Shown: one piece after another, positions 8,008-52,864 of the stretch | How the letters are laid out: each line of letters starts with the position of its first letter | Numbering within the stretch: position 1 is the stretch's first letter | Origin: Parcubacteria group bacterium Greene0416_36 | GTDB lineage: Bacteria; Patescibacteriota; Patescibacteriia; VMEV01 | Assembly: GCA_007375725.1 (NCBI GenBank) | Contig: VMEV01000001.1 | Location: 15,503-79,502 of the forward strand | DNA: 64,000 nt | Direction of reading: 5' to 3' | Translations under genes and position numbers: made by a program | Notes under the pieces: generated by a model | Seen by the model: only the letters and a program-made list of their open reading frames with translations | What the model was told of the DNA's origin: nothing | Databases searched by the model: none

Positions 8008-8022
8008 ATCATATAGAATACA

Positions 8023-8108
8023 GCAACAAATCCCCCTTAATCCCCCTTTGACAAGGGGGAAATAGCGCCCTCCTTTGTCAAAGGGAGGGTTGGGGAGGGA
8101 TTTGTTGC
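8023..8108. repeat. GC-rich palindromic repeat element, copy 1
   Basis: aacaaatccccc..cccctttgacaaggggg..ccctcctttgtcaaagggagggttggggagggatttgttg; outer inverted repeat plus two internal hairpins. Confidence 0.8.
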
Positions 8109-10127: not shown

Positions 10128-11279
10128 TTATCTTGTCAATACCCCCCTCGTCTCCCTCGCACACCTCTCCCACGAAAAATCACGAAGCCGAATCTTGCCC
10201 TTCTCGATCAAATCCCTCTTTAATGCCTCATTTTTTAAAATCCCCGCTATTTTCTCCGCCATATCCTCCACCGAATGCGGATCAAAATAGAGGGCGCCGT
10301 CACGGGCCACTTCCGGAATCGAAGCAATATGAGACGCGACCAGAGGAGTCCCCGCCGTAAACGCCTCCAGAATCGGAATCCCAAACCCTTCATACAATGA
10401 TGGAAACACAAAACAATCAGCACCTTTCATCAGATGAGGTAAGTCGGATTGGGGGACCCAGCCGGGAAACAACAAATCCCTCCCCAACCCTCCCTTTGAC
10501 AAGGGAGGGGGTAGCAGCCTCCCCCTTGTCAAAGGGGGATTGAGGGGGATTTGTTGCTCTATCTCCTCCCACCCCGTCCCCTTCCCTCCCGCCAAAACCA
10601 ATTTATGAGGGATCTGATACTTCTCTTTCAAAATCCGAAACGCGCGAATCAAGCCAACGACATTTTTCTTTTTCTCCAGACGCCCGACATAAAATAAATA
10701 CGGACCCTCAACATATTTTCGGACAATCTCCGACGTTTTATTCCAATCTGTTTTTTTATAAAGCTCCTCATCATATGACTGATACACTACGGAGATTTTG
10801 GACTCCGGAATCCGATAGCGCGCGATCATTTCCTGCCGCGAAAACTCCGAAATCGTGATGATGTGGCGCGCGCGGCGGACAGCCAGTCGCATGGTGAACC
10901 GGTGATAGGCCAGTTCTTTCCAGGAGTACAGTTCTGGAAAAGTCTCAAAACCGATATCGTGGCAGGTGGTGACGGTATTTTGTGGACTGATGATCGGCAA
11001 GGTATGCGCGGGGACAAATAAGACATCGGGAGCATCTGAGAGCATCTCCAGCGACAATCTCCCCTGTGTCCAGAGATATTTCGGCGGCCAATTCAAATAC
11101 TTCACCTTAAAATTCTCCGGCCAAACCGAAAAATCCGAGAGGAGCGGATCTCTCGTATATAACCGATATTGATTCTCGCGGTCCAATCGCGCCAAAGCAC
11201 GAATCAGATGATACGAATACCATTCAGTACCGGTACGTTTGGGTTTATTGGCGCGGGAAGCGTCGATGCCGATTAACAT
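10128..11279 (-). CDS. Family 1 (GT4-type) glycosyltransferase
   Basis: YVGRLEKKKN, LVLAGGKG and ADCFVFPSLYEGFGIPILEA motifs. Start set at MLIGIDAS (11279); the track ORF runs on into upstream repeat copy 3. Confidence 0.75.
   Translation of the reverse strand: MLIGIDASRANKPKRTGTEWYSYHLIRALARLDRENQYRLYTRDPLLSDFSVWPENFKVKYLNWPPKYLWTQGRLSLEMLSDAPDVLFVPAHTLPIISPQNTVTTCHDIGFETFPELYSWKELAYHRFTMRLAVRRARHIITISEFSRQEMIARYRIPESKISVVYQSYDEELYKKTDWNKTSEIVRKYVEGPYLFYVGRLEKKKNVVGLIRAFRILKEKYQIPHKLVLAGGKGTGWEEIEQQIPLNPPLTRGRLLPPPLSKGGLGRDLLFPGWVPQSDLPHLMKGADCFVFPSLYEGFGIPILEAFTAGTPLVASHIASIPEVARDGALYFDPHSVEDMAEKIAGILKNEALKRDLIEKGKIRLRDFSWERCARETRGVLTR
10470..10556. repeat. GC-rich palindromic repeat element, copy 2, lying in-frame (87 bp) inside the glycosyltransferase gene
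   Basis: Near-identical to copies at 11301 and 32514. It translates as QIPLNPPLTRGRLLPPPLSKGGLGRDLL within the GT ORF without a stop. Confidence 0.8.
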
Positions 11280-11300
11280 AATTAAACAACAAACAGCCAA

Positions 11301-11397
11301 CAACAAATCCCTCCCCAACCCTCCCTTTGACAAGGGAGGGGGTAGCAACCTCCCCCTTGTCAAAGGGGGATTGAGGGGGATTTGTTGTTTATTTTTT
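11301..11397. repeat. GC-rich palindromic repeat element, copy 3
   Basis: Same sequence family; lies between the GT start and the hpf stop. Confidence 0.8.
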
Positions 11398-13920: not shown

Positions 13921-14007
13921 AAATTTCTCTTATTTTAGCATCTATCAAGATAAAAATCCAAATAAAAAAAGAACCGAAAATATTTTCGATTCTTTTTCTA
14001 ATTCCAC

Positions 14008-14286
14008 AAAAAGGGCTTGGTTGACAGGCGGGATTCTTTGACGTATACTAATATAAAGTTGTAAACAAGGTATCTGATCCAACTATAGGATCTACTTGCA
14101 TGGACTTGTTTACAGACTTCATATTTTACTTTGCTTCAAAGAGTCCTATGGCTATAGGATTCTTTTAGTTTTAATTGCAATTACTATAAGTAAAAACAAG
14201 GTTAAAACTAAAATGGTTTGATCCATAACACCTATCACCCCCTTTCCTGAGTTAATGACTCAAGATCCGGATCAGATACGCAAGTA
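14008..14286 (+). ncRNA. Conserved non-coding element copy A; candidate small RNA carrying its own promoter (function unknown)
   Basis: About 85% identical to 16002..16278. Stems are preserved with loop changes and a G-U-compatible substitution (GAGTCCTA..TAGGATTC versus GAATCCTA..TAGGATTC). No conserved ORF. Confidence 0.4.
14021..14049 (+). promoter_or_regulatory. Sigma-70-like promoter TTGACA-N17-TATACT
   Basis: ttgacaggcgggattctttgacgtatact; conserved in copy B at 16015..16043. Confidence 0.5.
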
Positions 14287-14342
14287 TTTCAACTTAACCT
14301 ACCAACACAAATTTGCAAGGTCGTTTTATCCCCAAAAATTCG

Positions 14343-14380
14343 AATAAAAAAAGAACCGAAATTTATTTCGGTCCGCACTT
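14343..14380 (-). terminator. Rho-independent terminator hairpin downstream of the 14399..14737 gene
   Basis: accgaaa-tttat-tttcggt stem followed by a T-run on the minus strand. Confidence 0.5.
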
Positions 14381-14398
14381 TCCAGACTATTAAAAGTT

Positions 14399-15879: not shown

Positions 15880-16001
15880 TAAAATTCCCCTTTTCACTCA
15901 CGATAACATGTAAATAAGGTAAACAAAATAGCCCTCCCCGCTTCGCCCTAAGGCGGGCTACGCGGGGCAAGCCCCGGTTGGGAAAGCTATCTTTTTTTTC
16001 A

Positions 16002-16278
16002 TAAAAGGGATTGGTTGACAGAGCGGATTCTTTGACGTATACTCAGATAAAGTTGTAAACAAGATACCCGATATCTTTTGTGTCTACTTGCACGGACTTG
16101 CTTACAGACTTCACCTCACGTTTGTTTAGAGAATCCTACCCTATAGGATTCTTTTTGTTTTAATTGCAATTACTATAAGTAAAAACAAAGTTAAAACTAA
16201 AATAGTTTGATCCATAGTTCTCTGTCTCACCCCCTTTCCGAGTTTAATAACTCCAGACCCGGATCGGATACGCAAGTA
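16002..16278 (+). ncRNA. Conserved non-coding element copy B; candidate small RNA
   Basis: Paralog of 14008..14286 with the same TTGACA-N17-TATACT promoter (16015..16043). Confidence 0.4.
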
Positions 16279-16356
16279 ATTCACATTACATCAAAGAATT
16301 ATATTTTCAATGCTGACTTATCCACCAAAAAAGAGCCACCTGAGGTGGCTCTTTTT

Positions 16357-31983: not shown

Positions 31984-32069
31984 AAAATCCCCCTCAGTCC
32001 CCCTTTGACAAGGGGGAGGCTGCTACGCCCCCTCCCTTGTCAAAGGGAGGGTTGGGGAGGAATTTGTTG
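31984..32069. repeat. GC-rich palindromic repeat element, copy 4 (between the dnaK start and the hsp20 stop)
   Basis: aaaatccccctcagtccccctttgacaagggggaggctgctacgccccctcccttgtcaaagggagggttggggaggaatttgttg. Confidence 0.8.
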
Positions 32070-32513: not shown

Positions 32514-32599
32514 AACAAATCCCCCTCGGTCCCCCTTTGACAAGGGGGAAGCTGCTACCCCCTCCCTTGTCAAAGGGAGGGTTGGGGAGGGATTTGTTG
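32514..32599. repeat. GC-rich palindromic repeat element, copy 5 (between hsp20 and grpE)
   Basis: Same family; near-identical to copies 2 and 3. Confidence 0.8.
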
Positions 32600-32611: not shown

Positions 32612-33127
32612 TTACTTCGCCACAATCACCTTTGCATGACGGAGAACCTGGCCGTTATATTCATACGCTCCGCATAATTCACGGAGAACGACACCGGACA
32701 CTCCGTCTTTGACCATTTCCTCTCCCACAGTTTCGGCATATTTCGGATCATAGGGCTTACCCAACAGCTCGATACGTTTGACTCCCAAACCAGATAGAAA
32801 CACATCCATTTGGCGTCGAATGCCAATAATACCCACCACCCAATCTTGTTTTTTCTGATCCTCGGGAATAAAGTTTCCTGCCATGTCCCAGTGTTCCACC
32901 ACCGGCAAAAGGCCTTTGATGAAAGACTGGAACGAAAATTCTTTCATCTTGTCCTCCCGGCGAACCACTTCTTTTTCCATATTCTGATAGTCCGCGAGCG
33001 CTCGTTTCCACCCCACGAGATACTCCAGCGCTTCTTTTGTTTTCACCGCCAGCTCGTCTTTTAAATTCTGTATTTCGAGAAGGGTGATTGATTTATTTTC
33101 TTGACTTTTTTGTTCTTCATTATTCAT
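32612..33127 (-). CDS. grpE: Nucleotide exchange factor GrpE
   Basis: WKRALADYQN and a C-terminal beta-domain pattern. Confidence 0.9.
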   Translation of the reverse strand: MNNEEQKSQENKSITLLEIQNLKDELAVKTKEALEYLVGWKRALADYQNMEKEVVRREDKMKEFSFQSFIKGLLPVVEHWDMAGNFIPEDQKKQDWVVGIIGIRRQMDVFLSGLGVKRIELLGKPYDPKYAETVGEEMVKDGVSGVVLRELCGAYEYNGQVLRHAKVIVAK

Positions 33128-33153
33128 ATTTTTGTAGTGGATTATCTTTCTAT

Positions 33154-33276
33154 CCGACCCTTCGACTCGGGGCCCTTTGGGCCGCCTCGCTCAGGGTCTA
33201 GCGACCCACACCTCTAGCCACGGGTCGCAGACCCTGAGCGAGGCGGCCGAGTATCGGCCCCGAGTCGAAGGGTCGG
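33154..33276. repeat. 123-bp GC-rich near-perfect palindrome with a nested central hairpin
   Basis: ccgacccttcgactcggggcc...gccgcctcgctcagggtc / gaccctgagcgaggcggc...ggccccgagtcgaagggtcgg with inner gcgaccc-N14-gggtcgc. About 65% GC in an otherwise AT-leaning region. Confidence 0.7.
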
Positions 33277-33330
33277 TAACAAAGCACAGAATAATATAAA
33301 GGAGAAAGTCATTCTATTGTAAAACACAAC

Positions 33331-33906
33331 CTACTTCCTAATTTTTAAATCATACAAAATCTCCTCCACTCGGCTCAAATTGCGCTTGGCGTCATCGAAT
33401 TTGGAACGGAGTTTGCCGACTAGGTCGAAACCCAAAAGGCCGGCGACCACATTTTCGGTGAAAGCGCGGATATTTTTGATTTCAGACTCCGAATCCTTCT
33501 TGCCTTCTACAACCAAGAGCACAGCGCGGCGAACCAGTTCACCGGTCACATCGCAAACAGCCCCCAAATACTCCTCAAAAAATTCGACTTCCACGGACTT
33601 GAGTAATTCCACAGATTCTCCTTTGAGATACATATAAAAAAACTTAGCTTCAAGATATTCTTCCAGCGCCGCGCGAAACACGCCTTCGGAATCCTCGCCG
33701 TCGGAGAGCCGGTTGATGTCCTTGATTTTGGCATCCATCAAATCAAAATTCTTCTCGGCCAGAGCTAAATCATTGCGATGCAGAGCAAAAATAGACTGTT
33801 TGGCAAGCTTCAAAATATCAGAAGACTCGGCAATAACGGCGTGACGGCTCTCTCGATATTTTTGATAATGAGACAAAAGCTCAGGAAACATTTTTTTAGA
33901 GATCAT
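33331..33906 (-). CDS. Translin-family-like protein embedded in the heat-shock operon
   Basis: LEEYLEAKFFYMYLKG and DVTGELVRRAV resemble the translin motifs QEYVEAVSFQHFIK and DLTGELMRM. Confidence 0.5.
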   Translation of the reverse strand: MISKKMFPELLSHYQKYRESRHAVIAESSDILKLAKQSIFALHRNDLALAEKNFDLMDAKIKDINRLSDGEDSEGVFRAALEEYLEAKFFYMYLKGESVELLKSVEVEFFEEYLGAVCDVTGELVRRAVLLVVEGKKDSESEIKNIRAFTENVVAGLLGFDLVGKLRSKFDDAKRNLSRVEEILYDLKIRK

Positions 33907-33937: not shown

Positions 33938-34018
33938 GCAACAAATCCCCCTTAATCCCCCTTTGACAAGGGGGAGACTGCGCCCTCCCTTGTCAAATGG
34001 AGGGTTGGGGAGGGATTT
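33938..34018. repeat. GC-rich palindromic repeat element, copy 6 (between translin-like and hrcA)
   Basis: gcaacaaatcccccttaatccccctttgacaagggggagactgcgccctcccttgtcaaatggagggttggggagggatt. Confidence 0.8.
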
Positions 34019-36594: not shown

Positions 36595-38127
36595 ATGAAG
36601 TTCAATGGAAAAAAATTAATAAAAGCGGGGATCAAAGTCATTGCCGAAGGAATCCCTTTTTTTGGGAAATTCATCAAAGCCATCGGCGAGATGGAATCCG
36701 AAGAACAAAGCATCGAGATGCAGGAAGGCATCAAGCAATCGGAATCCAGAATCGATGTGCTCGAAGATGCCATTCAGGATATCCTGACTCAGAATACTGA
36801 TATTGATTCTTCGGTCAGAAAAATCAAAGAGGTACTGGAGAACCCACAAACTTGCCTGAATTTCTCACTACTCCCCAATCTCATCAAAGGAAAACACGAT
36901 TTCTTCAAGATACTTGCTTCCCCCGGAGATTACGGCGGAACCGTTACCAGTCCCCTCGGAGCCACCGAATACCAAAAACATCTCATCCCCATTATTTCCT
37001 ACGCCCCCGACGGAGAAACCTTGCTCGTGACCCAATTCCCAATCGGAACATTCAAACTGATTTCGAATGTTCTCAAACTCGAACATCCCGACCGCCTTTT
37101 ATCTGCTCACGATGAACAGTCTATCTGGACCCTGAAGAAAGAGATGCCTATTTTCCATGAAACCTCAAATCAAGCAAAGATTGCAGAAGAACGCGTCCAA
37201 AACAATTGGACTCCTCTGGGCGGAAAAATAGACGGATGGGAAATCATACGGTTCGTCATGGACGATGATATAAAGTACTGGGATTCAAAAATCAAAACTC
37301 TAAAAACGCATCGATTTCAACCAAAAATCCTTTTGATTTTCGATTACTCCGTAAAAAATGTCCTGAAGGAAAGCGGAATGTTTGAACTGATCGATTTCTT
37401 CTGCGAACAAAAAACAATTCCATCTTTTGTGACAGGCGGAGAACACATTAAACAATCCCTCATTCGTTCTGGTCTTTTAAACCAGGATCCTTTTGGAAAG
37501 ATAAAAACGCTTCACGGTTATGGATTCAAATATTTTTCTTCTTGGGCAGAATTGAATGGAGAATTGGATATCCTCAGAAAAAAAAGCAACCCAATCAAAG
37601 CAAAAGCCCAACCAGATGACAATTCAGATCCCTATCTGAAAAGAATTGAAATCCACCCCCAAAAAAACCGACAGGATGAAGTGACATTTGTGAAAAAGGA
37701 AAGCCAATGGTCTATAGGCAAAGAAAAAAAACGCCGTCATTATAGCGAGGTACAAATAATGAATCCGATGGAAGAAGAAAAGGCATATAGGTCTATTATA
37801 GACATGCGCATTCATGACGCTCATATTGTATGCTTCAACTTCGAACACTATGAATGCTATAAAGGAGAAACTCCTTACTGCGATACCATGAACAAATTTC
37901 TAGGTCAGGCCGATACTGAGAGTAATCCTAAACACAAAAAGCAACAAATATCCTTGTGTTTCCAGAAAAAAGTAACATTATTGATCCTTGGTAACCCAAC
38001 TATGACCAAGGAGATCAACCTTTGGCATGGCATCGAGGATTTTGAAAAAGCATGTCAGCTCCTCTATATGCCGAGCAATTTACACAAGGAGGAGTATTTA
38101 AAACAATTCCAGCTTACTCTAGTCTAA
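36595..38127 (+). CDS. Hypothetical 510-aa protein (orphan). N-terminal amphipathic helical region; central/C-terminal domain with a possible TIR-like signature; C-terminal Cys/His cluster.
   Basis: Long ORF with an RBS-like aggagatcac upstream. KILLIFDYS ... FKYFSSWAELNGELD weakly resembles the TIR betaA and SxWCxxEL motifs; unverified. Confidence 0.5.
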   Translation: MKFNGKKLIKAGIKVIAEGIPFFGKFIKAIGEMESEEQSIEMQEGIKQSESRIDVLEDAIQDILTQNTDIDSSVRKIKEVLENPQTCLNFSLLPNLIKGKHDFFKILASPGDYGGTVTSPLGATEYQKHLIPIISYAPDGETLLVTQFPIGTFKLISNVLKLEHPDRLLSAHDEQSIWTLKKEMPIFHETSNQAKIAEERVQNNWTPLGGKIDGWEIIRFVMDDDIKYWDSKIKTLKTHRFQPKILLIFDYSVKNVLKESGMFELIDFFCEQKTIPSFVTGGEHIKQSLIRSGLLNQDPFGKIKTLHGYGFKYFSSWAELNGELDILRKKSNPIKAKAQPDDNSDPYLKRIEIHPQKNRQDEVTFVKKESQWSIGKEKKRRHYSEVQIMNPMEEEKAYRSIIDMRIHDAHIVCFNFEHYECYKGETPYCDTMNKFLGQADTESNPKHKKQQISLCFQKKVTLLILGNPTMTKEINLWHGIEDFEKACQLLYMPSNLHKEEYLKQFQLTLV

Positions 38128-39646: not shown

Positions 39647-39764
39647 ATAATTTGAGGCTATTAGGCATTAGGCCATTAGCTTATTAGATTGATAGAAAAC
39701 TGATTGCTTAAATTTTAGCAAAAATAGCACAGAAAAAAAGCAGGGATAAAAAACCCTGCTTATA

Positions 39765-39800
39765 CACAAAAAATGTCCGACATGTCGGACATTTTTTGTG
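39765..39800 (-). terminator. Perfect palindromic Rho-independent terminator between tsf and gap
   Basis: cacaaaaaatgtccgacatgtcggacattttttgtg; preceded by a second hairpin gcagggataaaaaaccctgc at 39741..39760. Confidence 0.65.
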
Positions 39801-41248: not shown

Positions 41249-41975
41249 ATAAATTCTTGTCGGACCGTAGCTTTTTAGCAAAGGCCGAATCTTTTTAATC
41301 TCTACTACCCCTACCCTTTCGCCCTAGTTAGAAAACAAGGGAAGAATGAAAGGATATTGGAAATGCTTATAAATAAGCACTGGAGATAGTATAAAGGATG
41401 AATAAATTAGCTTCTTTAGGCTTTAGCTTCATTAGCTTCTTTAGCTAAAAAAACAAATAAAACCATTTAAAAGCTATTAAGAGAAACTAACAGATTTAAG
41501 CCAGATGATCAACTTGACAAAATACAAATAAAAGACTATTGTATTGGCACTATTCGACCGTCAATTATCAGCCTTTTTTCGCTGATCGATGAAGATTGGC
41601 GAGGAGAGGCACTTTGAAAAGGAAAAAAAGAATGAATGACAAAAAACACACAATCAATCCATGGACAAAAGAAGAGCTTGAACAATTAGCCAAAAGCATG
41701 AAAAGGCAAAAAGACAGAATAAAAAAAATTAGTGAGTCGGACAATGAAGCCATTTGGGAAGCTTGGGATTCTGGCAATCCAGCGAATCACCAAGAACCTT
41801 CTGTAAAACAGAAAAAATAAATAATTTCGAACCCCCTCACAACCAAATCCCGCCGCACTCGGATCCAACCCAGTCAGCGGTTTTTAAATTTCTAGGGAAT
41901 TTAAAAAGGCCGCGAGAGTATTGGACTGCGGCCAATTTTGTAAAATTTTTCATTTTCATTTATAAATTCCCTTTT

Positions 41976-42635
41976 TTAGGCCACCTTCAACTGCGGGAAC
42001 ACATGCCACCGCAGACCCCAATAATGACAGAACATGCCAAAATTCACACAGATATGCCAAAGAGCGTGGTAATACCAGCGGTGAGAGTCGTATTTATAAA
42101 ACCACAGAGCTCCCAGCATGTACCAGCCCCCGCCAATAATAATAAAAGCAATTGCGTCCCAAGAAAGATTCTTGAGTATGGACCGGCTGAATAGAAAAGC
42201 GTATCCGGCTAGACCATAATAGAGGCAAATAGAGTCGGGGTGATATCGGTGCGGACATCCGATTTTATATAGCACACCAAAAACACAGATAAGAGCGGCT
42301 CCAACCGTATAAATTTTCTGATTGGGAAACGCGCTCAAAATCACAATCGCCACGGTCACCGCTATATGGACGAAAATACAGCAATGATCGAATATCTTTA
42401 TGGCTTGATTGAATGTATCCGAGGAATAATGACCATAAAGACCGTGGTATAGCGCACTGGAGAAAAAAACTCCAAAAATAGACCAAGCATAAACAAAAAA
42501 GAGCTTCCTCTTTTTCTCTTCCCAAGCCGGAATATAAAATAGCACTACCCAGAGGGAAATCAACGCGGGAATGGCGTGAGTGATCCAGTTAAGCGGATAA
42601 TACACGCAATATCTGCCAATACTCAGTGCTTCCAT
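41976..42635 (-). CDS. Hemolysin-III / PAQR-family 7-TM membrane protein
   Basis: Seven hydrophobic spans with conserved His residues (YHGLYGH, HCCIFVH, HALWHICV). Confidence 0.6.
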   Translation of the reverse strand: MEALSIGRYCVYYPLNWITHAIPALISLWVVLFYIPAWEEKKRKLFFVYAWSIFGVFFSSALYHGLYGHYSSDTFNQAIKIFDHCCIFVHIAVTVAIVILSAFPNQKIYTVGAALICVFGVLYKIGCPHRYHPDSICLYYGLAGYAFLFSRSILKNLSWDAIAFIIIGGGWYMLGALWFYKYDSHRWYYHALWHICVNFGMFCHYWGLRWHVFPQLKVA

Positions 42636-42746
42636 GGCCGCACCTCACTTTCGGGACATGCCCCTATAAAAAAGAACGATTCCCTATATATTAGAACGGT
42701 AGTATTTTTTGAAAAAAACAACAAACCCTTTCTTGGAGAAAGGGTT

Positions 42747-43166
42747 TTATCGTCGATATCGACTTGCTTTTAGCAAGGCTTCTTCCAGCCCCGGTTCAAA
42801 TTTCTGTTCTTTGATCTCGTCTTTATGAATCCAGATGAATTGGGTTTCTGTCTTATTTTCATGATCCATAAAAAGAATTTCATTTGGCACATCCATTAAA
42901 TACACCACATAAACACGATGAAAAGACCTTTCCGGCGCAAAATAAGTAAATGCATGCAAAAGTCCGGGGTTCTCACTGAGGGTATAATTTAGCTCTTCCT
43001 TCAATTCACGGCGCAAGGTGTTCAGCAATGTTTCTCCATATTCTACAGTACCTCCCGGAATATCCCGCGTTCGGCTCGCACTATTCCTCATCGAGTACAG
43101 AACCTTATCTCCGCTAAAAAGAAGGGCTGAAATCAAAACATTTGTATCCAGTACTACTTTTATCAT
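42747..43166 (-). CDS. NUDIX hydrolase (second copy in window)
   Basis: Nudix box GGTVEYGETLLNTLRRELKEELN. Start set at MIKVVLD, 7 nt after the stop of the upstream small ORF. Confidence 0.65.
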   Translation of the reverse strand: MIKVVLDTNVLISALLFSGDKVLYSMRNSASRTRDIPGGTVEYGETLLNTLRRELKEELNYTLSENPGLLHAFTYFAPERSFHRVYVVYLMDVPNEILFMDHENKTETQFIWIHKDEIKEQKFEPGLEEALLKASRYRR

Positions 43167-43173
43167 AAGGAAT

Positions 43174-43404
43174 CTAGCGGGACCTGACAGCCTCAATTTC
43201 TTCTTCAATTTCATTCTCACTTATCTGTGCGCCTATAGATTTAAGCCTAGACTTTAAAGCAGACAGAGAAGGATTCTCCATCTTTTTAATAATCAAACTA
43301 TCGACTTCTGCCATAATATACACATCAGCCCCTTCCCAAGACTTTTGTAATTGCGATGATAGTCTAATCGATCCTCTTTTAACTTGGCTTGTTTTGACGG
43401 TCAT
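43174..43404 (-). CDS. AbrB/MazE/SpoVT-like swapped-hairpin small protein (antitoxin-like)
   Basis: VKRGSIRLSSQLQKSWEGADVYIMAEVDSLIIKK fits the AbrB/MazE fold pattern; co-oriented and almost abutting the Nudix gene. Confidence 0.4.
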   Translation of the reverse strand: MTVKTSQVKRGSIRLSSQLQKSWEGADVYIMAEVDSLIIKKMENPSLSALKSRLKSIGAQISENEIEEEIEAVRSR

Positions 43405-43410
43405 AGAATA

Positions 43411-43758
43411 TCAATTTATGCTTCTATGATATAAGAAAAACCAATAGAAATCCAGCTTTTCCATATCCATTACTTTGAAATCGCAGTCGGAATAAGAAAA
43501 TTTCGCGATTTTAATCAATTTTTCAGAAATACCTATCCCGCAAGATATTTCCGCACCCATAGTTTTGAGATAATGAGAATCTTCCCCACTGCCACAGGCC
43601 AAACTCAATACTTTCTTCCCTTTCAGATCGGGCAAAAGCGCGTACATCGCCGGCTTTTCATAATAAGCATGATACAGAGATTCCTCCGGATTTCTCACAT
43701 GCTCCGAATATTGCTGAGAATTATCATTATACCACGCTATAGTTTTTGGATCAGTCGA
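43411..43758 (-). pseudogene. Class I SAM-dependent methyltransferase fragment (motif I present, C-terminal half missing)
   Basis: KVLSLACGSGEDSHYL motif I, but the ORF ends about 70 aa later, too short for a full Rossmann methyltransferase. Confidence 0.4.
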
Positions 43759-43885
43759 CATAAATAAATCATGATATTCCAATGCTCTCAGATTAGCCCA
43801 ATTCCCTCTTTCTCTCAAGCTCCAAAATTGACAATTCACCCTAAAACATAATAATCTGAAAACGTTCCTTAGCGCATCATTATTC

Positions 43886-43959
43886 GCCCTCATCGTCTAA
43901 CGGTTAGGACATCAGATTCTCAATCTGGTAATCGGAGTTCGATTCTCCGTGGGGGTACC
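43886..43959 (+). tRNA. tRNA-Glu (anticodon CUC; inferred by eye)
   Basis: TCGTCTAACGGTTAGGACA D-arm typical of tRNA-Glu, anticodon loop TTCTCAA, T-arm CGGAGTTCGATTCTCCG, acceptor GCCCTCA/TGGGGGT with two G-U pairs. Confidence 0.6.
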
Positions 43960-44378
43960 CTAAAACGACTCTCCCGCCAATAGCGGGACCAAGTATCTGT
44001 AACATCAATATTGATCTGATTTTTTTCAAACAAAAAAAAGACCCCAGTTAATTTATATTGATATTATTCAATATTTTAACTGAAGTATTTTTGATCTTCA
44101 TCTCCTTTTAATTGCCTTTTCAGGATTTTTTCTGCGGCAATCTTTTTCGGTGGAGACAGGCTTTTTCACCTTTCAACTGCTTTCAAATAACTGTCTTCGA
44201 AAGCAAACCGTCAGATTTCTCTAGGTAGAAATCTGCAAAAGAAATTTTCGATATATCCACCATTTTTACCTAATATGGGATATATCTACTCTAGGAGCAG
44301 GCCTAGTCCTTTAAGAGGTTCCTGTTCTTTTGGAACAGGGTTGACCTCTATTTGACCCTCTGCTTTTTGGAAGCAGAT

Positions 44379-44745
44379 ATACTTTTTCCTAACCCTACCC
44401 CTTTTTTTAAGGGGAAGAGCTGTAAACTTTATCTGGTGCCTATCACAACAAAATGTGACTAGGCGATAAAGAAGATTCGGACAGGATTTGCAACCTGTGG
44501 ATTTTGATGAGGAGCTTATAGCCTGCCTCATCTCCATCCAATCTTTTATCCCATAAAGAACCGTCCTTTTTCCTAACCCCTCTTTTTTTACAAAAAAGGA
44601 GCTGTAAACTTTATTTGATGCCTATCACATAAATGTGACTAGGCGAATAAAGAAATTCGGCAGGTGTTTCAACCTGAGGGTTTCAATGAATGGACCCATG
44701 TCCTCGTTCATTGATTCCCAATTTTTCTTACAAATCGATCATGAA
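44379..44745. repeat. Two tandem units of about 184 bp, highly structured, in a 1-kb gene-free region
   Basis: Unit 1 (44379..) and unit 2 (44563..) share about 130 nt (cctttttcctaaccc...agctgtaaactttat..tgcctatcaca...tgtgactaggcga..caggt..caacctg) with conserved stems and variable loops. Confidence 0.6.
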
Positions 44746-45004
44746 AACATACTAACACATAAAAATAGATATGTCAATATTCTACAAAAAAATGCTAATA
44801 TATAATCAAAAAAAGAAATCCCATTGATTTTGGATCAATGGGCTTCTGGTAGGCATTATGTATATGAGACCTATTAAGGCAGAACAATTTAATGCCTGTC
44901 CATATTTTCAACCTACCGATTTAGAAGTACATATACTATACCACACCTGAAACAAAAAGTCAAAAATAGTTAATAAAATCGCTAATATAAAATAAAATTC
45001 AAAA

Positions 45005-46252
45005 CTACTGCCTCACCAATACCGCCGGTGCGCCCAAGGGCTCGGCCATGAGCTCGCGGACGATTTTCTCCATGCGGGTTTCGGCACCTCCGGAAACCAT
45101 GAGGAGGTCGCCTTTTTCGAGGCGGTTCTGGATGAATCGGCCGGCTTCTTCTGGGGTCGGAAAATAAAAACACCGTTCTTCGAGCATGCCGGCTTCTCGG
45201 GCTCCACGGACAATATCGCGGGCCTTCTCGCCTACGGCAACCAGATAATCCGGGTTCGTTTCAAATACTTTAGCTCCGATCGCACGATGCTCGTCTTCCG
45301 TGTAGCGGCCGAGATGGCTGATCGACCCCAAGACCGCAAACTTCTCGCGAGGTTTCTCAAGCGCAATCGACGCCAAGGTGTCCAATGCCACCTTCATGGA
45401 ATAAGGATTGGCGTCTCGGGTATCGTCGATGATCATGGTTTTCTTAATGCCGCGGATGAGGCACAATTTCCCGGGGGTGGGATGGTATCCGACAAAAGAC
45501 TCCACCATTTTGAGTAAATTCCCGCCCAGGTGAAGTCCGGCCAAAATTCCGGCCATGAATCCGCGCGCGTGATCCGCCCCCACGGCTCCGGGCAAAAACA
45601 CGGGAATGCTGTTTCCTTGATAATTGAGCTTGAACGACATGCCCAAAAGCCGGCCGTCGGTTTCCTCGGCCTGCCGGTCTTCCCATACCGATAAATCACT
45701 GGCTCGAATCGTTGCACTAGAAGAAAATCCAAATGAAACAGAAGGCGATGAAACCCCCTTGGCCGCGGCCGCCACATTCAGATTATCGGCGTTAAAAATC
45801 ACCAGAGGATTCGCCCCGGACACCGCAAAAATGCCGGATTTCTCCTTGGCCTCTTCTTCGATCGAGGCAAAAAATTCTTGATTGGTGTCGCTCACGGTTC
45901 CCAAAATTCCAATCGAGTGCGGATGAAAATCCAAAAAAGGCTTCATTTTTCCCGGAGCATGCGCCGGATATTCCACGACAAAACATTTCGTAAAATCGCG
46001 GCTTCCGACCAAACTTTTGATGCCTTGCACCACAATATTCTTTTTGCCGTCCAAAACCCATCCAGCCAAATCCTCCAAGGGTTCCTTTCCATACTCTCCC
46101 GAACGCACCACCCTGCCTCCCACGACTTCCTTGAGCGCAAAAAATACGGCATCTCGAATGATGACTGACTCCGCATCTCCGGCAACCGCAATCCAATGCG
46201 GCCTATGCCGGGCAAGAGTTTTTTGCGCGAGTCTGACTATAAATTTTTCCAT
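45005..46252 (-). CDS. murF: Mur ligase family protein, MurF-like, lacking the N-terminal domain and with a non-canonical P-loop
   Basis: IIDDTRDANPYSMKVAL matches the MurF DDSYNANP box and there are central-domain matches. The position aligned to the GSSGKT P-loop reads AGDAES. Confidence 0.6.
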   Translation of the reverse strand: MEKFIVRLAQKTLARHRPHWIAVAGDAESVIIRDAVFFALKEVVGGRVVRSGEYGKEPLEDLAGWVLDGKKNIVVQGIKSLVGSRDFTKCFVVEYPAHAPGKMKPFLDFHPHSIGILGTVSDTNQEFFASIEEEAKEKSGIFAVSGANPLVIFNADNLNVAAAAKGVSSPSVSFGFSSSATIRASDLSVWEDRQAEETDGRLLGMSFKLNYQGNSIPVFLPGAVGADHARGFMAGILAGLHLGGNLLKMVESFVGYHPTPGKLCLIRGIKKTMIIDDTRDANPYSMKVALDTLASIALEKPREKFAVLGSISHLGRYTEDEHRAIGAKVFETNPDYLVAVGEKARDIVRGAREAGMLEERCFYFPTPEEAGRFIQNRLEKGDLLMVSGGAETRMEKIVRELMAEPLGAPAVLVRQ

Positions 46253-49323: not shown

Positions 49324-49764
49324 CTAAATTGCCGTCCCCGAAAAATCCCCCAACTTTTCCGCAATACTAGAGCTGGAAGACTCATTGTCCGACTGATATC
49401 GGGTCCAAGCCTCCTCATTCCAAATTTCCACTTTATTATATAAACCCACCACCACGGTTTTCTTGCTGATTTTGGCGAATACGCGTAAATACTCGGGAAT
49501 CACGATTCTTCCCGCGCGGTCCATCCCCACATCCATCGCCCCGGAGAGCACAAAACGACTAAATGCCCGGCCATCGCTTTTGTTGATCGGCAGGGTCGCA
49601 AGTTTCTGGGCCAAGGTTTTCCATTCATCCAGAGCGTAGAGAGTGAGGCATCCATCCAGTCCCCGGGTCACCACCGCTCCGCGCCCCAAGGACTCTCTGA
49701 ATTTCACCGGCAATGACAATCGCCCCTTATCATCCAAAGAATAAAAATATTGTCCGATAAACAT
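49324..49764 (-). CDS. mraZ: Transcriptional regulator MraZ
   Basis: MFIGQY, DDKGRLSLP and a duplicated MraZ-domain pattern. Confidence 0.9.
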   Translation of the reverse strand: MFIGQYFYSLDDKGRLSLPVKFRESLGRGAVVTRGLDGCLTLYALDEWKTLAQKLATLPINKSDGRAFSRFVLSGAMDVGMDRAGRIVIPEYLRVFAKISKKTVVVGLYNKVEIWNEEAWTRYQSDNESSSSSIAEKLGDFSGTAI

Positions 49765-49969
49765 AATTTTTTCCTACTACCGCCTTGAAAAGGTAGGAGC
49801 ACAGCGCGCTGTGCCCCTACCTTTTAGCATCCGTCGGGCGTGATATCACGACAAGCATGGAAGTGATTCCACTTTTTCCCACTTTTAACCACTACAAGCC
49901 CAAGATACACCACACCGACCCAAACATCAATATTATTCCTGTGCATAAGTCATTTTTTTAAGAAAAATA

Positions 49970-50004
49970 AATGTAGGGGCGTTGCATGCAACGCCCCTAC
50001 ATTT
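49970..50004. terminator. GC-rich hairpin of the gtaggggc...gcccctac family (bidirectional terminator-like)
   Basis: aatgtaggggcgttgcatgcaacgcccctacattt flanked by A/T runs. A related hairpin aaaggtaggagcacagcgcgctgtgcccctaccttt lies at 49788..49824. Confidence 0.55.
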
Positions 50005-50019
50005 ATTTTTCGTGATTGA

Positions 50020-50667
50020 TTATGCTTGCGTATCCGCCACCACATCCCTTATCCGATCCCATACCACAATCTTTCTGGCATTGAGAATAGAATCGAGAAA
50101 TTTGTCTCCAATGCCTTGGCGATAGCGGAATTCGTCGGGAGAAAAAATGGAAAATCGGATGGAACGGCCCAGCTTGGCTTCATATTCTGCCAAAAGACTC
50201 CGAATATCCGTTCTCGACTGATCCATGACCAATAGAATATCCACGGGGCTCTCGGCATCCGTAAAAAAACCGGTCGCGGCAAAATAATCAATGCCGCCCA
50301 AGGCTAGAATTTTGGTAAAGTATTGCTCGCGAAAGAAGAACTGGGACTTAAGAAAAAGCCCTTGCAGTTCAGGATAAAGACGAAAGGCCTTGGCTACCTG
50401 GAAATATCTTTTTTCCTGAATTCCGACAGCCCCCCCACCTTCGTCCCCCTTTAGGGATTCCGACTCTTCCAAAATGCCCACCTGCACAAGGTTAAGAAGT
50501 TCCCTTCGGACCGCGTGAATTTGGATATCTGCCATTCGAGTCAATTCGCGCACATAAAAAAATTTGTCAGGATGAGTGAAAAAAATATAAAGTAGAACGA
50601 ATCGAGTCCTAGACCCGAACAAATTTTCCAAAAGTAAATCTTGTTTCCAATCCGAACTATAATCCAT
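50020..50667 (-). CDS. Winged-helix plus nucleotidyltransferase-like domain protein
   Basis: N-terminal wHTH-like segment (FYVRELTRMADIQIHAVRRELLNLVQVGIL) and a C-terminal GGIDYFAATGFF....ILLVMD NTase-like pattern. Confidence 0.45.
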   Translation of the reverse strand: MDYSSDWKQDLLLENLFGSRTRFVLLYIFFTHPDKFFYVRELTRMADIQIHAVRRELLNLVQVGILEESESLKGDEGGGAVGIQEKRYFQVAKAFRLYPELQGLFLKSQFFFREQYFTKILALGGIDYFAATGFFTDAESPVDILLVMDQSRTDIRSLLAEYEAKLGRSIRFSIFSPDEFRYRQGIGDKFLDSILNARKIVVWDRIRDVVADTQA

Positions 50668-50728: not shown

Positions 50729-52864
50729 ATGCAACATAAGATCGTTCAATGCGAAAAATTCGTACAAAATTCTCCAGGCCGGCACAATTATATGTCTGTC
50801 TTTTCAGCCTCCTCCGGAGAAGATTCTTCCGTCTTGGCTTTGATTGTCGAAGCCAGAAAACAAAACCCGTCGGAGCATGGAATCGAATTCGAGAGTCTTT
50901 TTAAGACCCTCCAATATTATTATTGGCATATCCATAACGATCCCCAAAAAAAACCAGAGGATAATTTCGAACAATCCCTCAAAAGCCTTAACAATGAAAT
51001 ACTCCGGATGATCCAAGAGCGAAAACTCATTATCCGCCTCTCGGCCATTCAAATGCTTGTCATGCTCATCAAGCCATCCCGCGAATCCAATAAATATTGG
51101 GATATTTATATGTCCTCTTACGGGAATCTCCGAGCATACCTCATTCATCAGCTGCCGCTGGAAACTTATAAAATGATCTCCATTCCACTGGACGGCGTGG
51201 CCCTGACAGATAACCGATTTGCGCCGCTCTTCGCCAATATCATATCTGGAAAATTGCAGGAAAAAGACACATTACTCATGGGAGGGGATGCCATACTCGA
51301 ATATATGAATGAAGAAGAACTCACGGGAGTCCTTTCCTCTCTGCCTCCGTCAGGCGTTGCCAATTATATTCGAACCCAGCTCCAAAAATACAATCAAACA
51401 TTCGGATCGTTAATTTGTAAAATTGGAGAGATTCCCAGTCCCTCCCGTTTTGAGTACGCGCACCAAAATCCAGATACCCAAAGCCAAGAATCCCTTGAAA
51501 ATCTAGTGCTCACCGAAAAAAGAACGGCTCAAATACTCTCCCCGCTCGCCTCAGAAACCGACAATAAATTCGTGCGAACATTGGGGAAAAGCCTCCTCTA
51601 TTTGCGTCATGGAGCCAGCCTTGCGGCTCAATTTGTCAAAACGCGATTTGGCAGTCTTTTCGCTAAAACCGACCCGCAGATATTGCCAGAGAAGCCCCAG
51701 ACCCAGCTTGGCCGAATACAAAATATCACCATGAATATTATCGGCTTTATCTTCAATCTGATCACATCATTCTCCTCCAAAAGTTTTCGGCTCTTGGGCA
51801 TCACCTTGATTCTGTTCACCTTAACCTATGGTTCCATAGTCTGGATCAAAAATAAAAAAATATCCGTGGAAGCCGAACATGCCTATACTCGAATAACCCA
51901 AGAGACCCAGGAAACAAAAAATCAGATTGAAGCCGCGCTGATCTATGGACAAGAATCAAAGGCCAGAGAACTGTTGGAAACCCTAAAAAATAAAATATCC
52001 TCTATAAATCCCAGCGACGACCAAACCAAACAAGAATTTTTCTCTGGCGCCCGCGGAGATATTGCCAAATTCCAAGATATCCTCAATCATAATAACCGAC
52101 TGACTCTCGGCGAAATCTGGATGAACATCTCCTCCACCTTGGGAGATAAAAAAACGATAGCCTGGGCATCCACCCAGACCCACCTCCACGCCGTTCTAGA
52201 CACGGGAGTTATTTATAAAATAGACATCAAGAACAAAGATATATTGGAACTCGAAGAATTTCAGGGCAAAAACGCGGCACTGGCCATAGGAAACACTCAG
52301 CAAATCTTGATTTTGGACACTGGCGGCAATTGGCATCTTTTGGAAAAAGATAATAGCTTCTCCGCACTCAAATCTAATATTCCTAACCCGGAATCTATCA
52401 GCGACGGTGTTTTCTATAATAAAAAGCTTTATCTCCTCGACCGCGCCCATAGCCAAATTTATAAAGCGAGAATCGATGGCAGTAGCTTGGTTTTAGAAAA
52501 AAAATGGCTTGAAGATAATACCGATCTCTCCCAAGTAAAAACGATAGCCGTAGACGGACGGGTTCTTGCATCGAACTCTTCCGGAAATATCAAGATCTTT
52601 TTTAGCGGTAAATTGTCGGCAGACGTGATCACTCTTGACCGACCCAATCCGGAACTGGGCTCGATCACCCAACTCTATACCCAGCTAGATTTCCCGCACA
52701 TTATCGCCCAAGACAAAAGTCGAGTCCTCATCTGGAGCTCCCAGGGTCAGCTGGAAGGCCAATTCGCCAAGGAAGACCTCTCCCCTCTGGACGGATTTTC
52801 CGTGGTCGGACAAGATCTCTACATCGCCGGAGGAGGGATGATTTGGAAAGAGGAGTTGAAGTAA
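50729..52864 (+). CDS. Hypothetical 711-aa membrane protein: cytoplasmic N-domain, one TM, extracytoplasmic beta-propeller-like C-domain
   Basis: TM at LLGITLILFTLTYGSIVWI. C-terminal repeats LYLLDRAHSQIY, VLASNSSGNIKIF, VLIWSSQGQL and LYIAGGG suggest a propeller. Confidence 0.45.
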   Translation: MQHKIVQCEKFVQNSPGRHNYMSVFSASSGEDSSVLALIVEARKQNPSEHGIEFESLFKTLQYYYWHIHNDPQKKPEDNFEQSLKSLNNEILRMIQERKLIIRLSAIQMLVMLIKPSRESNKYWDIYMSSYGNLRAYLIHQLPLETYKMISIPLDGVALTDNRFAPLFANIISGKLQEKDTLLMGGDAILEYMNEEELTGVLSSLPPSGVANYIRTQLQKYNQTFGSLICKIGEIPSPSRFEYAHQNPDTQSQESLENLVLTEKRTAQILSPLASETDNKFVRTLGKSLLYLRHGASLAAQFVKTRFGSLFAKTDPQILPEKPQTQLGRIQNITMNIIGFIFNLITSFSSKSFRLLGITLILFTLTYGSIVWIKNKKISVEAEHAYTRITQETQETKNQIEAALIYGQESKARELLETLKNKISSINPSDDQTKQEFFSGARGDIAKFQDILNHNNRLTLGEIWMNISSTLGDKKTIAWASTQTHLHAVLDTGVIYKIDIKNKDILELEEFQGKNAALAIGNTQQILILDTGGNWHLLEKDNSFSALKSNIPNPESISDGVFYNKKLYLLDRAHSQIYKARIDGSSLVLEKKWLEDNTDLSQVKTIAVDGRVLASNSSGNIKIFFSGKLSADVITLDRPNPELGSITQLYTQLDFPHIIAQDKSRVLIWSSQGQLEGQFAKEDLSPLDGFSVVGQDLYIAGGGMIWKEELK

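What the first reader, a model, noticed from the sequence alone, without database searches (positions are those of the whole stretch)
43960..45004. 1-kb gene-free, densely structured region with tandem units of about 184 bp between tRNA-Glu and the murF-like gene
In a genome where intergenic gaps are typically under 100 bp, about 1045 bp following tRNA-Glu lack any credible ORF. The region contains many strong hairpins (for example cagatttct-ctaggt-agaaatctg and agaggttcctgttc..gaacagggttgacctct). It also contains two tandem units (44379.. and 44563..) that share about 130 nt, with conserved stems and altered loops (cctatcaca-loop-tgtgactagg; cagg..cctg). This could be one or more large structured non-coding RNAs. 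It could also be the decayed remnant of an element integrated next to the tRNA. No integrase or direct repeat of the tRNA 3' end is visible.
Basis: seen in the sequence. Interest (0 to 1): 0.5.

Follow-up and report, generated by a model that had tools for sequence, protein, structure and literature searches.

The report
Orphan structured non-coding RNA locus
The 1-kb gap between tRNA-Glu and murF in this Parcubacteria genome is a real, protein-free, very hairpin-dense stretch that most likely encodes two non-coding RNAs, one of them about 710 nt long with an internal tandem duplication, but it matches no known RNA family and has no relatives in public data, so its function cannot be pinned down.

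Summary
Window 43960-45004 has no credible ORF and is the only long run of strongly structured windows in the 64 kb. It holds two head-to-tail units of about 183 nt, at 44379-44562 and 44563-44745.

The two units keep the same four-to-five-helix fold through about nine compensatory changes. Both are more stable than randomly mutated copies at the same divergence, so the structure appears to be under selection.

The best promoter signals lie on the minus strand, the strand of murF and convergent with tRNA-Glu. These are two near-consensus extended -10 promoters, each followed by a canonical intrinsic terminator. I read them as an sRNA of about 120 nt (44928->44808) and an RNA of about 710 nt (44742->44032) that contains both units plus eight more hairpins. 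Strand assignment is not secure, because wobble pairs are mixed.

Rfam gives nothing. Scans of genomes, metagenomes, viruses, phages and plasmids find no homologue. The nearest relatives (MurF no more than 46% identical) lack the region. I found no integrase, no att repeat and no small protein.

Verdict: a lineage-specific, unclassified ncRNA locus. It is real and moderately interesting, but it cannot be tested by covariation with current data.

The parts
43828..43855 (+). Promoter of tRNA-Glu (TTGACA-16-AATAAT, 11 of 12). This is context, and it shows that the sigma-70 consensus is used in this genome.
43886..43959 (+). tRNA-Glu (anticodon CUC), convergent with the proposed ncRNA genes.
   Evidence: ARAGORN; Rfam 59 bits
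43972..43988 (-). G+C-rich 7-bp hairpin followed on the minus strand by GAGUCGUUUU. It looks like a weak back-up terminator that stops antisense transcription before the tRNA gene. On the + strand it has no U tract.
44032..44098 (-). Long hairpin (stem 44041-44086) flanked by A8 and U5, which gives the shape of a bidirectional terminator. On the minus strand the stem has 3 G-U pairs and is followed by U8, the proposed 3' end of RNA-B. On the + strand the same positions are C-A mismatches, and the hairpin could terminate the tRNA-Glu transcript.
   Evidence: (I1)
44111..44377 (-). String of eight unrelated hairpins at 44111-44141, 44149-44170, 44178-44205, 44212-44235, 44250-44286, 44291-44306, 44314-44349 and 44359-44377. 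The linkers are short and A-rich on the minus strand. This is the proposed 3' half of RNA-B.
44379..44562 (-). Tandem unit 1. In + coordinates: conserved leader CTTTTTCCTAACCC 44382-44395; H1 44398-44414; junction GAGCTGTAAAC; H2 44427-44471; three-way junction made of stem 44472-44477/44540-44545, H3 44481-44498 and H4 44499-44539.
44563..44745 (-). Tandem unit 2. Leader 44566-44579; H1 44580-44601; H2 44609-44652; H3 44661-44676; H4 44678-44719; junction stem about 44653-44659/44720-44726.
44749..44777 (-). Promoter P2: TTGACA-17 nt-TAGTAT with an extended -10 TG. The inferred start is near 44742, abutting the edge of unit 2.
44808..44928 (-). sRNA-A, about 121 nt. It consists of a long imperfect hairpin, then a 9-bp terminator stem (44820-44842), then AUUUCUUUUUUU. 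This is also the first terminator after the murF stop codon. Fold z = -4.5.
44935..44963 (-). Promoter P1: TTGACT-17 nt-TATAGT with an extended -10 TG. It lies 42-70 nt downstream of the murF stop codon.

Best explanation
The spacer holds two non-coding RNA genes on the minus strand. That is the same direction as murF and convergent with tRNA-Glu.

Gene A. Promoter P1 (44963-44935) starts an sRNA of about 120 nt near 44928. It folds into one long imperfect hairpin and ends at a canonical intrinsic terminator (44842-44820 plus a U tract). The same terminator also ends the mraZ-murF operon.

Gene B. Promoter P2 (44777-44749) starts an RNA of about 710 nt near 44742. This RNA contains two tandem 183-nt modules, then eight further hairpins. 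Each module has a three-way junction with one long variable hairpin and one short hairpin with an 8-nt loop, a 17-bp hairpin with an internal loop and a bulge, and a U/A-rich hairpin. The RNA ends at a bidirectional terminator (stem 44041-44086, U8) that it shares with tRNA-Glu.

Shown: the absence of coding capacity, the fold signal, selection on the fold of the two modules, and the promoter and terminator sequence motifs.

Inferred: that these promoters fire, that the minus strand is the RNA strand, and the function. My working mechanism is that RNA-B is a stable structured RNA. Its duplicated module would offer two copies of one binding surface for a protein or RNA partner, so it would act as a scaffold or sequestering RNA and not as an mRNA leader. 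sRNA-A would be a separate trans-acting or 3'-UTR-type sRNA.
For: Non-coding status rests. The indels between units are 1-2 nt, not multiples of 3.

Structure: there is a continuous run of z < -3 windows found only here, and z is about -10 for the 716-nt core.

Selection on structure. H4 has diverged by 47% against 20% for the rest of the unit (Fisher p = 0.001), yet both copies still form a hairpin of -17 to -21 kcal/mol. Randomly mutated copies at the same divergence reach the observed stability in 0-3% of 1000 trials for whole units and in 0-0.9% for H4. RNAalifold finds 4-5 pairs with changes on both sides. Aligning the helices by hand gives about nine.

Promoters. In 128 kb of both strands only three sites combine at least 10 of 12 consensus matches with an extended -10 TG. 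Two of the three are P1 and P2, both on the minus strand. Of the 17 sites with at least 10 of 12 matches, 12 lie in the 13% of the window that is non-coding. Eight of the 17 sit directly upstream of a gene or the tRNA (two of those eight inside an upstream or spurious ORF), so the consensus is predictive in this genome. No comparable + strand promoter precedes either unit, and the sequences upstream of the two units are unrelated.

Terminators. The two minus-strand terminators have U7-U8 tracts. The stem of the second has G-U pairs only on the minus strand.

The same genome has another promoter-bearing non-coding paralogue pair, so orphan ncRNA genes seem to be a feature of this organism.
Against: No expression data are available. 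No homologue was found anywhere, so covariation rests on only two paralogues.

The strand is ambiguous. Stabilities and z-scores are about equal on both strands. Several wobble pairs exist only on the + strand, in the junction stem and in H2 and H4 of unit 2. Five hairpins are followed by short U-rich runs on the + strand.

Most stems are perfect Watson-Crick palindromes, which would also fit a role at the DNA level.

The predicted architecture is mostly hairpins in a row, unlike known large ornate RNAs.

The flanking DNA is low in G+C and holds decayed genes, so a decaying region is possible.

No repeated loop motif supports a sponge-type mechanism.
Confidence: 0.5

Rival explanations
1. The RNA strand is the + strand. 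The region would then be a long 3' trailer of the tRNA-Glu transcript, or a set of + strand sRNAs. The two units would be tandem paralogous sRNAs of about 170 nt. Each would carry a pyrimidine-rich 5' seed (CUUUUUCCUAACCC, able to pair with Shine-Dalgarno-like AGGA sequences) and a 3' hairpin followed by a U-rich tail.
For: Wobble pairs specific to the + strand occur in the junction stem of both units and in H2 and H4 of unit 2. Unit 2 folds better on the + strand (z -5.0 against -3.5). Hairpin-plus-U-run motifs lie on the + strand at 44359-44377, after H4 of both units, at 44111-44141 and at 44041-44086. The tRNA-Glu promoter is strong, and no canonical + strand terminator follows the tRNA directly.
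Against: No + strand promoter reaching 9 of 12 lies anywhere between 43960 and 44900. The DNA upstream of the two units is not conserved, unlike the X1/X2 pair, where the promoter is conserved. The U runs after H4 are predicted to pair in the junction stem. Read-through from the tRNA would have to pass the 44041-44086 terminator. The outer stem of H1 forms only on the minus strand.
Confidence: 0.2
2. The region has no function of its own. It would be left-over DNA in a decaying, low-G+C part of the genome, for example what remains after gene loss or of an old inserted element. Its hairpins would be retained or accumulated terminators and palindromes, and the two units would be a neutral tandem duplication.
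For: The stretch 41.3-45.0 kb has 33-40% G+C against about 50% around it. It contains a truncated methyltransferase ORF that overlaps the tRNA, and a PIN N-terminus fused to a NUDIX domain. The region is absent downstream of murF in the nearest relatives. No homologue was found anywhere. Strong intergenic hairpins are common in this genome.
Against: Divergence between the units is non-uniform and compensatory, and both copies are more stable than neutral drift predicts. Two near-consensus promoters with extended -10 elements are unlikely to persist by chance. None of the hairpins belongs to the genome's own palindromic repeat family or recurs elsewhere in the window. CPR genomes are compact (87% coding here, median gap 80 nt), which argues against keeping 1 kb of junk. 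That last point is an inference.
Confidence: 0.2
3. The element works at the DNA level. It would be a cluster of palindromes acting as protein-binding, recombination, replication or topological sites (REP/BIME-like), or a stack of terminators that insulates the convergent tRNA-Glu and dcw-operon transcription units.
For: Most stems are perfect Watson-Crick palindromes with few wobble pairs on either strand (4.5% on plus, 7.3% on minus; counts). The region lies between convergent transcription units. Terminator-like hairpins are present in both orientations.
Against: The palindromes share no sequence with each other or with other loci, so they do not form an array for one binding protein. The GC skew shows no turn here, which argues against an origin or terminus. 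One good bidirectional terminator would be enough for insulation. The promoters P1 and P2 are left unexplained.
Confidence: 0.07
4. The region encodes one or more small proteins, for example a type I toxin with an antisense RNA.
For: Gene callers sometimes call an 81-aa and a 33-aa ORF here (locus L002). Type I toxin loci are often duplicated in tandem and strongly structured (general knowledge).
Against: The 83-aa ORF has no homologue. It is interrupted in the other unit by 1-2-nt indels. Only two ORFs of at least 12 codons have even a minimal Shine-Dalgarno match, and neither is conserved between the units. No hydrophobic peptide was seen.
Confidence: 0.03

Closest known systems
Large ornate bacterial ncRNAs found next to tRNA genes (GOLLD, ROOL; also OLE)
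   Same: It is in the same size class: about 710 nt here, against a mean of 581 nt for ROOL. It has no ORF, a very strong fold signal, and lies immediately beside a tRNA gene. [quoted passage not shown]
   Different: No match to any Rfam model, even at E up to 10. [quoted passage not shown] There is no prophage context. It is confined to one clonal population instead of being spread over phyla. It is convergent with the tRNA. It carries an internal tandem duplication.
Tandemly duplicated sRNA genes (such as OmrA/OmrB and PrrF1/PrrF2; from general knowledge)
   Same: Two adjacent non-coding units 75-80% identical, with conserved single-stranded blocks and a diverged hairpin that still folds.
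   Different: The units have no promoter of their own on either strand. They abut head to tail with no spacer. They most likely sit inside one longer transcript. No sequence homology to any of these families.
sRNAs that share the terminator of the upstream mRNA (3'-UTR-type sRNAs with their own promoter, such as MicL or DapZ; from general knowledge). This applies to sRNA-A only.
   Same: Promoter P1 lies just after the murF stop codon, and the sRNA ends at the first terminator downstream of murF.
   Different: P1 lies downstream of the stop codon, not inside the coding sequence. No target, chaperone or expression data exist. No homology.
TIGR stem-loop arrays of CPR bacteria and phages (PMC12045711)
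   Same: A tandem series of stem-loops with variable palindromic stems, in a CPR genome.
   Different: No Tas (Nop-domain) gene is adjacent. The loops are 3-19 nt, too small for two 8-12-nt spacers plus box C/D-like motifs. No recurring box motif was found.
REP/BIME-type clusters of intergenic palindromes
   Same: Many hairpins packed between convergent genes. This genome does have a palindromic repeat family of about 90 nt elsewhere.
   Different: The hairpins here are all different from each other and from the rest of the window.

Membership tests
Any Rfam 15 family | Covariance-model score at or above the family's gathering threshold | tested here: not met
   Only the two tRNAs pass in the whole window. 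Permissive scans of the region and its sub-pieces give nothing better than rli38 at 27 bits against a gathering score of 49 (E 0.034), and group-II-D1D4-3 at 16 bits against 32 (E 0.5).
GOLLD / ROOL / OLE large ncRNAs | Match to the family model with its conserved nucleotides, multistem junctions and pseudoknots | tested here: not met
   No hit at E up to 10. The MFE fold is mostly serial hairpins.
GOLLD / ROOL / OLE large ncRNAs | Typical context: next to tRNA genes, often in prophages (PMC5737381) | tested here: inconclusive
   It is adjacent to tRNA-Glu. There are no phage genes within 10 kb and no phage similarity.
Independent bacterial ncRNA gene (sigma-70 promoter plus intrinsic terminator, no ORF) | -35 and -10 hexamers at a spacing of 16-18 nt | tested here: met
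   P1 is TTGACT-17-TATAGT and P2 is TTGACA-17-TAGTAT. Both have an extended -10 TG and 10 of 12 matches. They are two of only three such sites in 128 kb. This is sequence evidence only.
Independent bacterial ncRNA gene (sigma-70 promoter plus intrinsic terminator, no ORF) | G+C-containing stem-loop followed directly by a U tract on the same strand | tested here: met
   44842-44820 followed by AUUUCUUUUUUU. 44086-44041 followed by CUUUUUUUU.
Independent bacterial ncRNA gene (sigma-70 promoter plus intrinsic terminator, no ORF) | A detectable transcript with defined ends | not testable with these tools
   No expression data are available.
Riboswitch or other cis-regulatory leader (single or tandem aptamers) | An ORF downstream on the same strand | tested here: not met
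   On the + strand the next gene is the convergent murF. On the minus strand come terminators and then the antisense of tRNA-Glu. No ORF lies in between.
Tandem paralogous sRNA genes | Each copy has its own promoter and terminator | tested here: not met
   No promoter reaching 9 of 12 lies upstream of either unit on the + strand. On the minus strand only unit 2 has one. The upstream sequences are unrelated.
Element integrated at a tRNA gene (prophage, ICE or genomic island) | An integrase gene and a direct repeat of the tRNA 3' end | tested here: not met
   No second copy of the 23-nt tRNA 3' end, allowing up to 3 mismatches, in 64 kb. No integrase among the called genes. No phage or plasmid similarity.
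Type I toxin-antitoxin or small-protein gene | A short ORF with a ribosome-binding site, conserved between copies | tested here: not met
   frame-breaking indels between the units.
TIGR-Tas array (dual-repeat or stem-loop type) | An adjacent Nop-domain Tas gene, and units that carry two 8-12-nt spacers flanked by box C/D-like motifs (PMC12045711) | tested here: not met
   The neighbours are murF, the tRNA and a methyltransferase fragment. There is no short periodic repeat. Hairpin loops are 3-19 nt. A divergent Tas protein elsewhere in the genome was not excluded.
REP/BIME or MITE-like repeat cluster | The same palindrome recurs at many loci | tested here: not met
   No part of 43960-45004 recurs in the rest of the window. 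The genome's own palindromic family is absent from the region.
Group II intron (ORF-less) remnant | Domain 5/6 motif and a significant match in D1-D4 | tested here: not met
   No Intron_gpII hit. The group-II-D1D4-3 hit scores 13-16 bits against a gathering score of 32, with E of 0.5-9.6.

The most novel reading that the evidence does not exclude
RNA-B would be the founding member of a new class of large (over 700 nt) structured non-coding RNA in Parcubacteria. It would be built around an internally duplicated 183-nt module, a pseudo-dimeric architecture. It would act as a self-assembling or protein-scaffolding RNA in the manner of OLE, ROOL or GOLLD, and would be encoded, like them, beside a tRNA gene. 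Relatives would be missing only because this lineage is almost unsampled: the nearest MurF is 46% identical.
Probability: 0.12. Interest if true: 0.7.

Novelty: new member of a known kind. Interest (0 to 1): 0.4.

Why it matters
CPR/Patescibacteria genomes are small and tightly packed, and almost nothing is known about their regulatory or structural RNAs.

A 1-kb locus that is free of protein genes, appears to be under selection for structure, and carries strong promoters would be one of the larger bacterial ncRNA candidates outside the known families. Together with the second paralogous non-coding pair seen at 14-16 kb, it suggests that this organism invests in several lineage-specific RNAs.

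If transcripts are confirmed, the duplicated module offers a natural handle for finding what it binds: two diverged copies with the same fold.

If the region is not transcribed, it would instead be an unusual example of retained non-functional DNA in a reduced genome.

Tried and rejected
1. Finding homologues. Gapped DNA patterns built from the blocks that are identical in both units were scanned in several collections.
- GTDB representative genomes, two scans: nothing.
- JGI metagenomes, two scans: nothing in the first; nine hits in the second, all chance matches inside coding DNA.
- IMG/VR, three scans: chance hits only.
- blastn against phages and plasmids: nothing.

2. Synteny. The closest MurF relatives (35-46% identity) have ordinary genes 70-230 nt after murF. 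The three other contigs that carry the identical MurF are 100% identical over 6-21 kb, so they give no population variation.

3. Spurious-ORF trick. Searching the 83-aa ORF as a protein, in the hope of finding related contigs, returned only itself.

4. A third, degenerate unit. None was found by local alignment with shuffles or by a covariance model.

5. Strand from unpaired-base composition. On the minus strand 51% of unpaired bases are A. The same test gives the wrong or an ambiguous answer for tRNA-Glu and for the X1/X2 elements, so I dropped it.

6. An 8-nt identity between the conserved GGGUUAGGA and the D-arm of tRNA-Glu is at chance level: 152 of 300 shuffles match it.

7. CsrB-like sponge. 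No recurring loop motif, and GGA counts are equal on both strands.

8. Other readings rejected: dif site, oriC, hammerhead, box C/D, group II intron and TIGR. There is no skew turn, no significant model match and no Tas neighbour.

9. Literature. Searches for CPR ncRNAs found nothing relevant.
Full report
**Context**

The window comes from a Parcubacteria (CPR) metagenome-assembled genome. Its MurF-like protein is named 'Parcubacteria group bacterium' by NCBI. The same contig is ENA ERZ27284378 k139_284924.

tRNA-Glu(CUC) lies at 43886-43959 on the + strand, with its own near-consensus promoter at 43828-43855. The murF-like gene (Mur_ligase_M/C) lies at 45005-46252 on the minus strand. It is the last gene of an mraZ-rsmH-ftsL-ftsI-murF block. 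The 1045-bp spacer therefore lies between convergent genes.

Yes.

- *No credible ORF.* The longest is 83 aa. It has no homologue among 5.8 billion proteins other than its own spurious call. Only two ORFs of at least 12 codons have even a minimal Shine-Dalgarno match, and neither is kept in the sister unit. Recoding any one stop codon does not produce a plausible gene.
- *Gap size.* A crude gene map gives 87% coding and a median gap of 80 nt, so this is the largest non-coding stretch in the window. Seven other gaps exceed 300 nt.
- *Fold signal.* In a scan of the whole window with dinucleotide shuffles the background is z = -0.5 +/- 1.6. The 160-nt windows from 44001 to 44960 are all below -3 on at least one strand, and no other run of this length exists. 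The 716-nt core has z = -9.8 on the minus strand and -11.5 on the plus strand.
- *Quoted hairpins.* Both are present, at 44212-44235 and 44314-44349.
- *Other hairpins in the genome.* Isolated, even stronger hairpins occur elsewhere. They are single intergenic terminators or members of a palindromic repeat family. None of them occurs in this region, and no part of the region recurs elsewhere in the window.

**The tandem units**

Two head-to-tail units, 44379-44562 and 44563-44745, are confirmed. There are exactly two. Pattern searches with mismatches, local alignment against shuffles and a covariance model find no third copy in the window or in the murF loci of relatives.

Over 166 aligned columns there are 44 substitutions, and the indels are 1-2 nt long. 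That is incompatible with a conserved reading frame.

Each unit folds into the same set of helices:

- a U/A-rich hairpin (H1);
- a 17-bp hairpin with an internal loop and a bulge (H2);
- a three-way junction, whose closing stem (AAGAUU/AAUCUU in unit 1) encloses a short hairpin with an 8-nt loop (H3) and a long hairpin (H4).

Divergence is far from uniform. H4 differs at 20 of 43 positions, the rest at 24 of 123 (Fisher p = 0.001). Yet both H4 copies remain stable hairpins.

In simulations, copies of one unit carrying the observed number of random substitutions reach the stability of the real sister unit in 0-3% of 1000 trials. For H4 alone the figure is 0-0.9%.

RNAalifold reports 4-5 pairs changed on both sides with pairing kept. 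Aligning the helices by hand I count about nine: three in H1, one in the base of H2, one in the junction stem and four in H4.

With only two sequences this is not a covariation test in the usual sense. It does argue that the fold has been maintained since the duplication.

**Which strand?**

Thermodynamics does not decide. Summed hairpin energies and z-scores are about equal on the two strands.

Wobble pairs point both ways:

- The outer stem of H1 (AGCUC/GGGUU) and the long hairpin at 44041-44086 need G-U pairs that exist only on the minus strand.
- The junction stem of both units, and H2 and H4 of unit 2, have G-U pairs only on the plus strand.

The clearest signal is transcriptional. In both strands of the 64 kb only three sites combine at least 10 of 12 consensus positions with an extended -10 TG. 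Two of them are in this spacer, both on the minus strand: P1 (TTGACT-17-TATAGT, 44963-44935) and P2 (TTGACA-17-TAGTAT, 44777-44749).

The consensus is predictive in this genome. Of the 17 sites with at least 10 of 12 matches, 12 fall in the 13% of non-coding DNA. Eight of the 17 sit directly upstream of a gene or the tRNA; two of those eight lie inside an upstream or spurious ORF.

No plus-strand site reaching 9 of 12 precedes either unit, and the DNA upstream of the two units is unrelated.

Each minus-strand promoter is followed by a canonical terminator. One is 44842-44820 plus AUUUCUUUUUUU. The other is the 44086-44041 stem plus U8. A weaker hairpin with a U4 run at 43988-43972 follows, just before the tRNA.

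On the plus strand, five hairpins are followed by short U-rich runs. These runs are displaced from the stem or are predicted to pair in the junction stem.

I tried to use the A-richness of unpaired positions on the minus strand (51% A) as further evidence. The criterion fails on tRNA-Glu and is ambiguous on another ncRNA-like pair of the same genome, so I do not rely on it. I put about 60-65% on the minus strand.

**Model**

- *sRNA-A*, about 121 nt (44928->44808). It starts at P1 and folds into one long imperfect hairpin plus the terminator (z = -4.5). Its terminator is also the first one after the murF stop codon.
- *RNA-B*, about 710 nt (44742->44032). It starts at P2, right at the edge of unit 2. 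It runs through unit 2, unit 1 and eight unrelated hairpins. It ends at a bidirectional terminator that can also end the convergent tRNA-Glu transcript.

What RNA-B does is inference. It has no downstream ORF, so it is not a leader or riboswitch. It has no recurring loop motif, so it is not a CsrB-type sponge. I favour a stable structured RNA whose duplicated module presents two copies of one binding surface.

**Comparison with what is known**

- *Rfam 15.* No hit at gathering thresholds. Permissive scans of the region and its sub-pieces give nothing credible.
- *GOLLD and ROOL.* These are the nearest in size and in their habit of lying next to tRNA genes (PMC5737381). There is no model match, no prophage context, and a much simpler predicted architecture.
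- *TIGR stem-loop arrays.* These occur in CPR bacteria (PMC12045711) and were considered because they are strings of variable palindromic stem-loops. Here there is no adjacent Tas gene, and the loops are too small to hold two spacers with box motifs.
- *Integrated-element reading.* There is no integrase, no repeat of the tRNA 3' end, and no phage or plasmid similarity. The surrounding 41.3-45.0 kb is low in G+C and contains decayed genes, which keeps a 'decaying region' reading alive at about 20%.

**Relatives**

They found either nothing or chance hits.

The closest MurF in 5.8 billion proteins is 46% identical. In four relatives, murF is followed after 70-230 nt by ordinary genes. The other contigs that carry the identical MurF are 100% identical over their whole length.

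The locus is therefore an orphan of a barely sampled lineage. Covariation analysis is not possible with present data.

**Verdict**

This is a real, unusual, protein-free and strongly structured locus. It is best read as two lineage-specific ncRNA genes on the minus strand, one of them large and internally duplicated. It is a new, unclassified member of the general kind 'bacterial non-coding RNA gene'. Confidence in that reading is about 0.5, and interest is moderate (0.4). Strand-specific transcript mapping is the decisive missing piece.

Noticed in passing
window 14009-14291 and 16003-16283 (+ strand): A second pair of paralogous non-coding elements. They are 82.6% identical over 287 nt (E 2e-78) and lie in two long gaps (13921-14398 and 15971-16356) between minus-strand genes. 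Each begins with a nearly identical promoter, TTGACA-17-TATACT (11 of 12), followed by about 235 nt of structured, ORF-poor sequence (z down to -7). No Rfam family matches. They are probably two copies of another orphan ncRNA gene.
   Followed up: partly
window 8018-8110, 10467-10556, 11299-11387, about 32001-32047, about 32558-32577, about 33981-34000: A family of near-perfect palindromic elements of about 90 nt, with ends CAACAAATCCC...GGGATTTGTTG and core CCCTTTGACAAGGGAGGGGG in both arms. They sit in intergenic DNA, are REP/MITE-like, and have fold z-scores of -6 to -10.
   Followed up: partly
window 41300-45000: A low-G+C stretch (33-40% against about 50%) that holds decayed or chimeric genes. 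One ORF has a PIN-domain N-terminus (VVLDTNVLISALL) fused to a NUDIX domain (42747-43220, minus). A truncated SAM-methyltransferase ORF (43411-43893, minus) has its longest reading overlapping tRNA-Glu by 8 nt. A 76-aa ORF (43174-43404) has no Pfam match.
   Followed up: partly
window about 33150-33280; 39735-39800; 49955-50015: Exceptionally long perfect hairpins in intergenic DNA. One is a G+C-rich stem of about 60 bp (-124 kcal/mol for 33120-33340). They are presumably bidirectional terminators, but are much longer than needed for that.
   Followed up: no
window 41514-41542 (+), in the 694-nt gap 41282-41975: An orphan promoter-like site, TTGACA-17-TATTGT, upstream of a 62-aa ORF (about 41632-41820) that only some gene callers call. 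This is either a small protein or another ncRNA candidate.
   Followed up: no
loci L002 and L003 (Logan assemblies), which start at window 49817: Two independent Logan assemblies from different runs break at exactly the same base. It is next to the hairpin-rich mraZ upstream region (49760-50030). This suggests a repeat or a hairpin-induced assembly break.
   Followed up: no
window 50729-52864 (+) and 36595-38127 (+): Two large proteins (711 aa and 510 aa) with no Pfam domain on record. They were not examined further. If a divergent RNA-binding or RNA-guided protein exists near the locus, these are the only candidates within about 8 kb.
   Followed up: no
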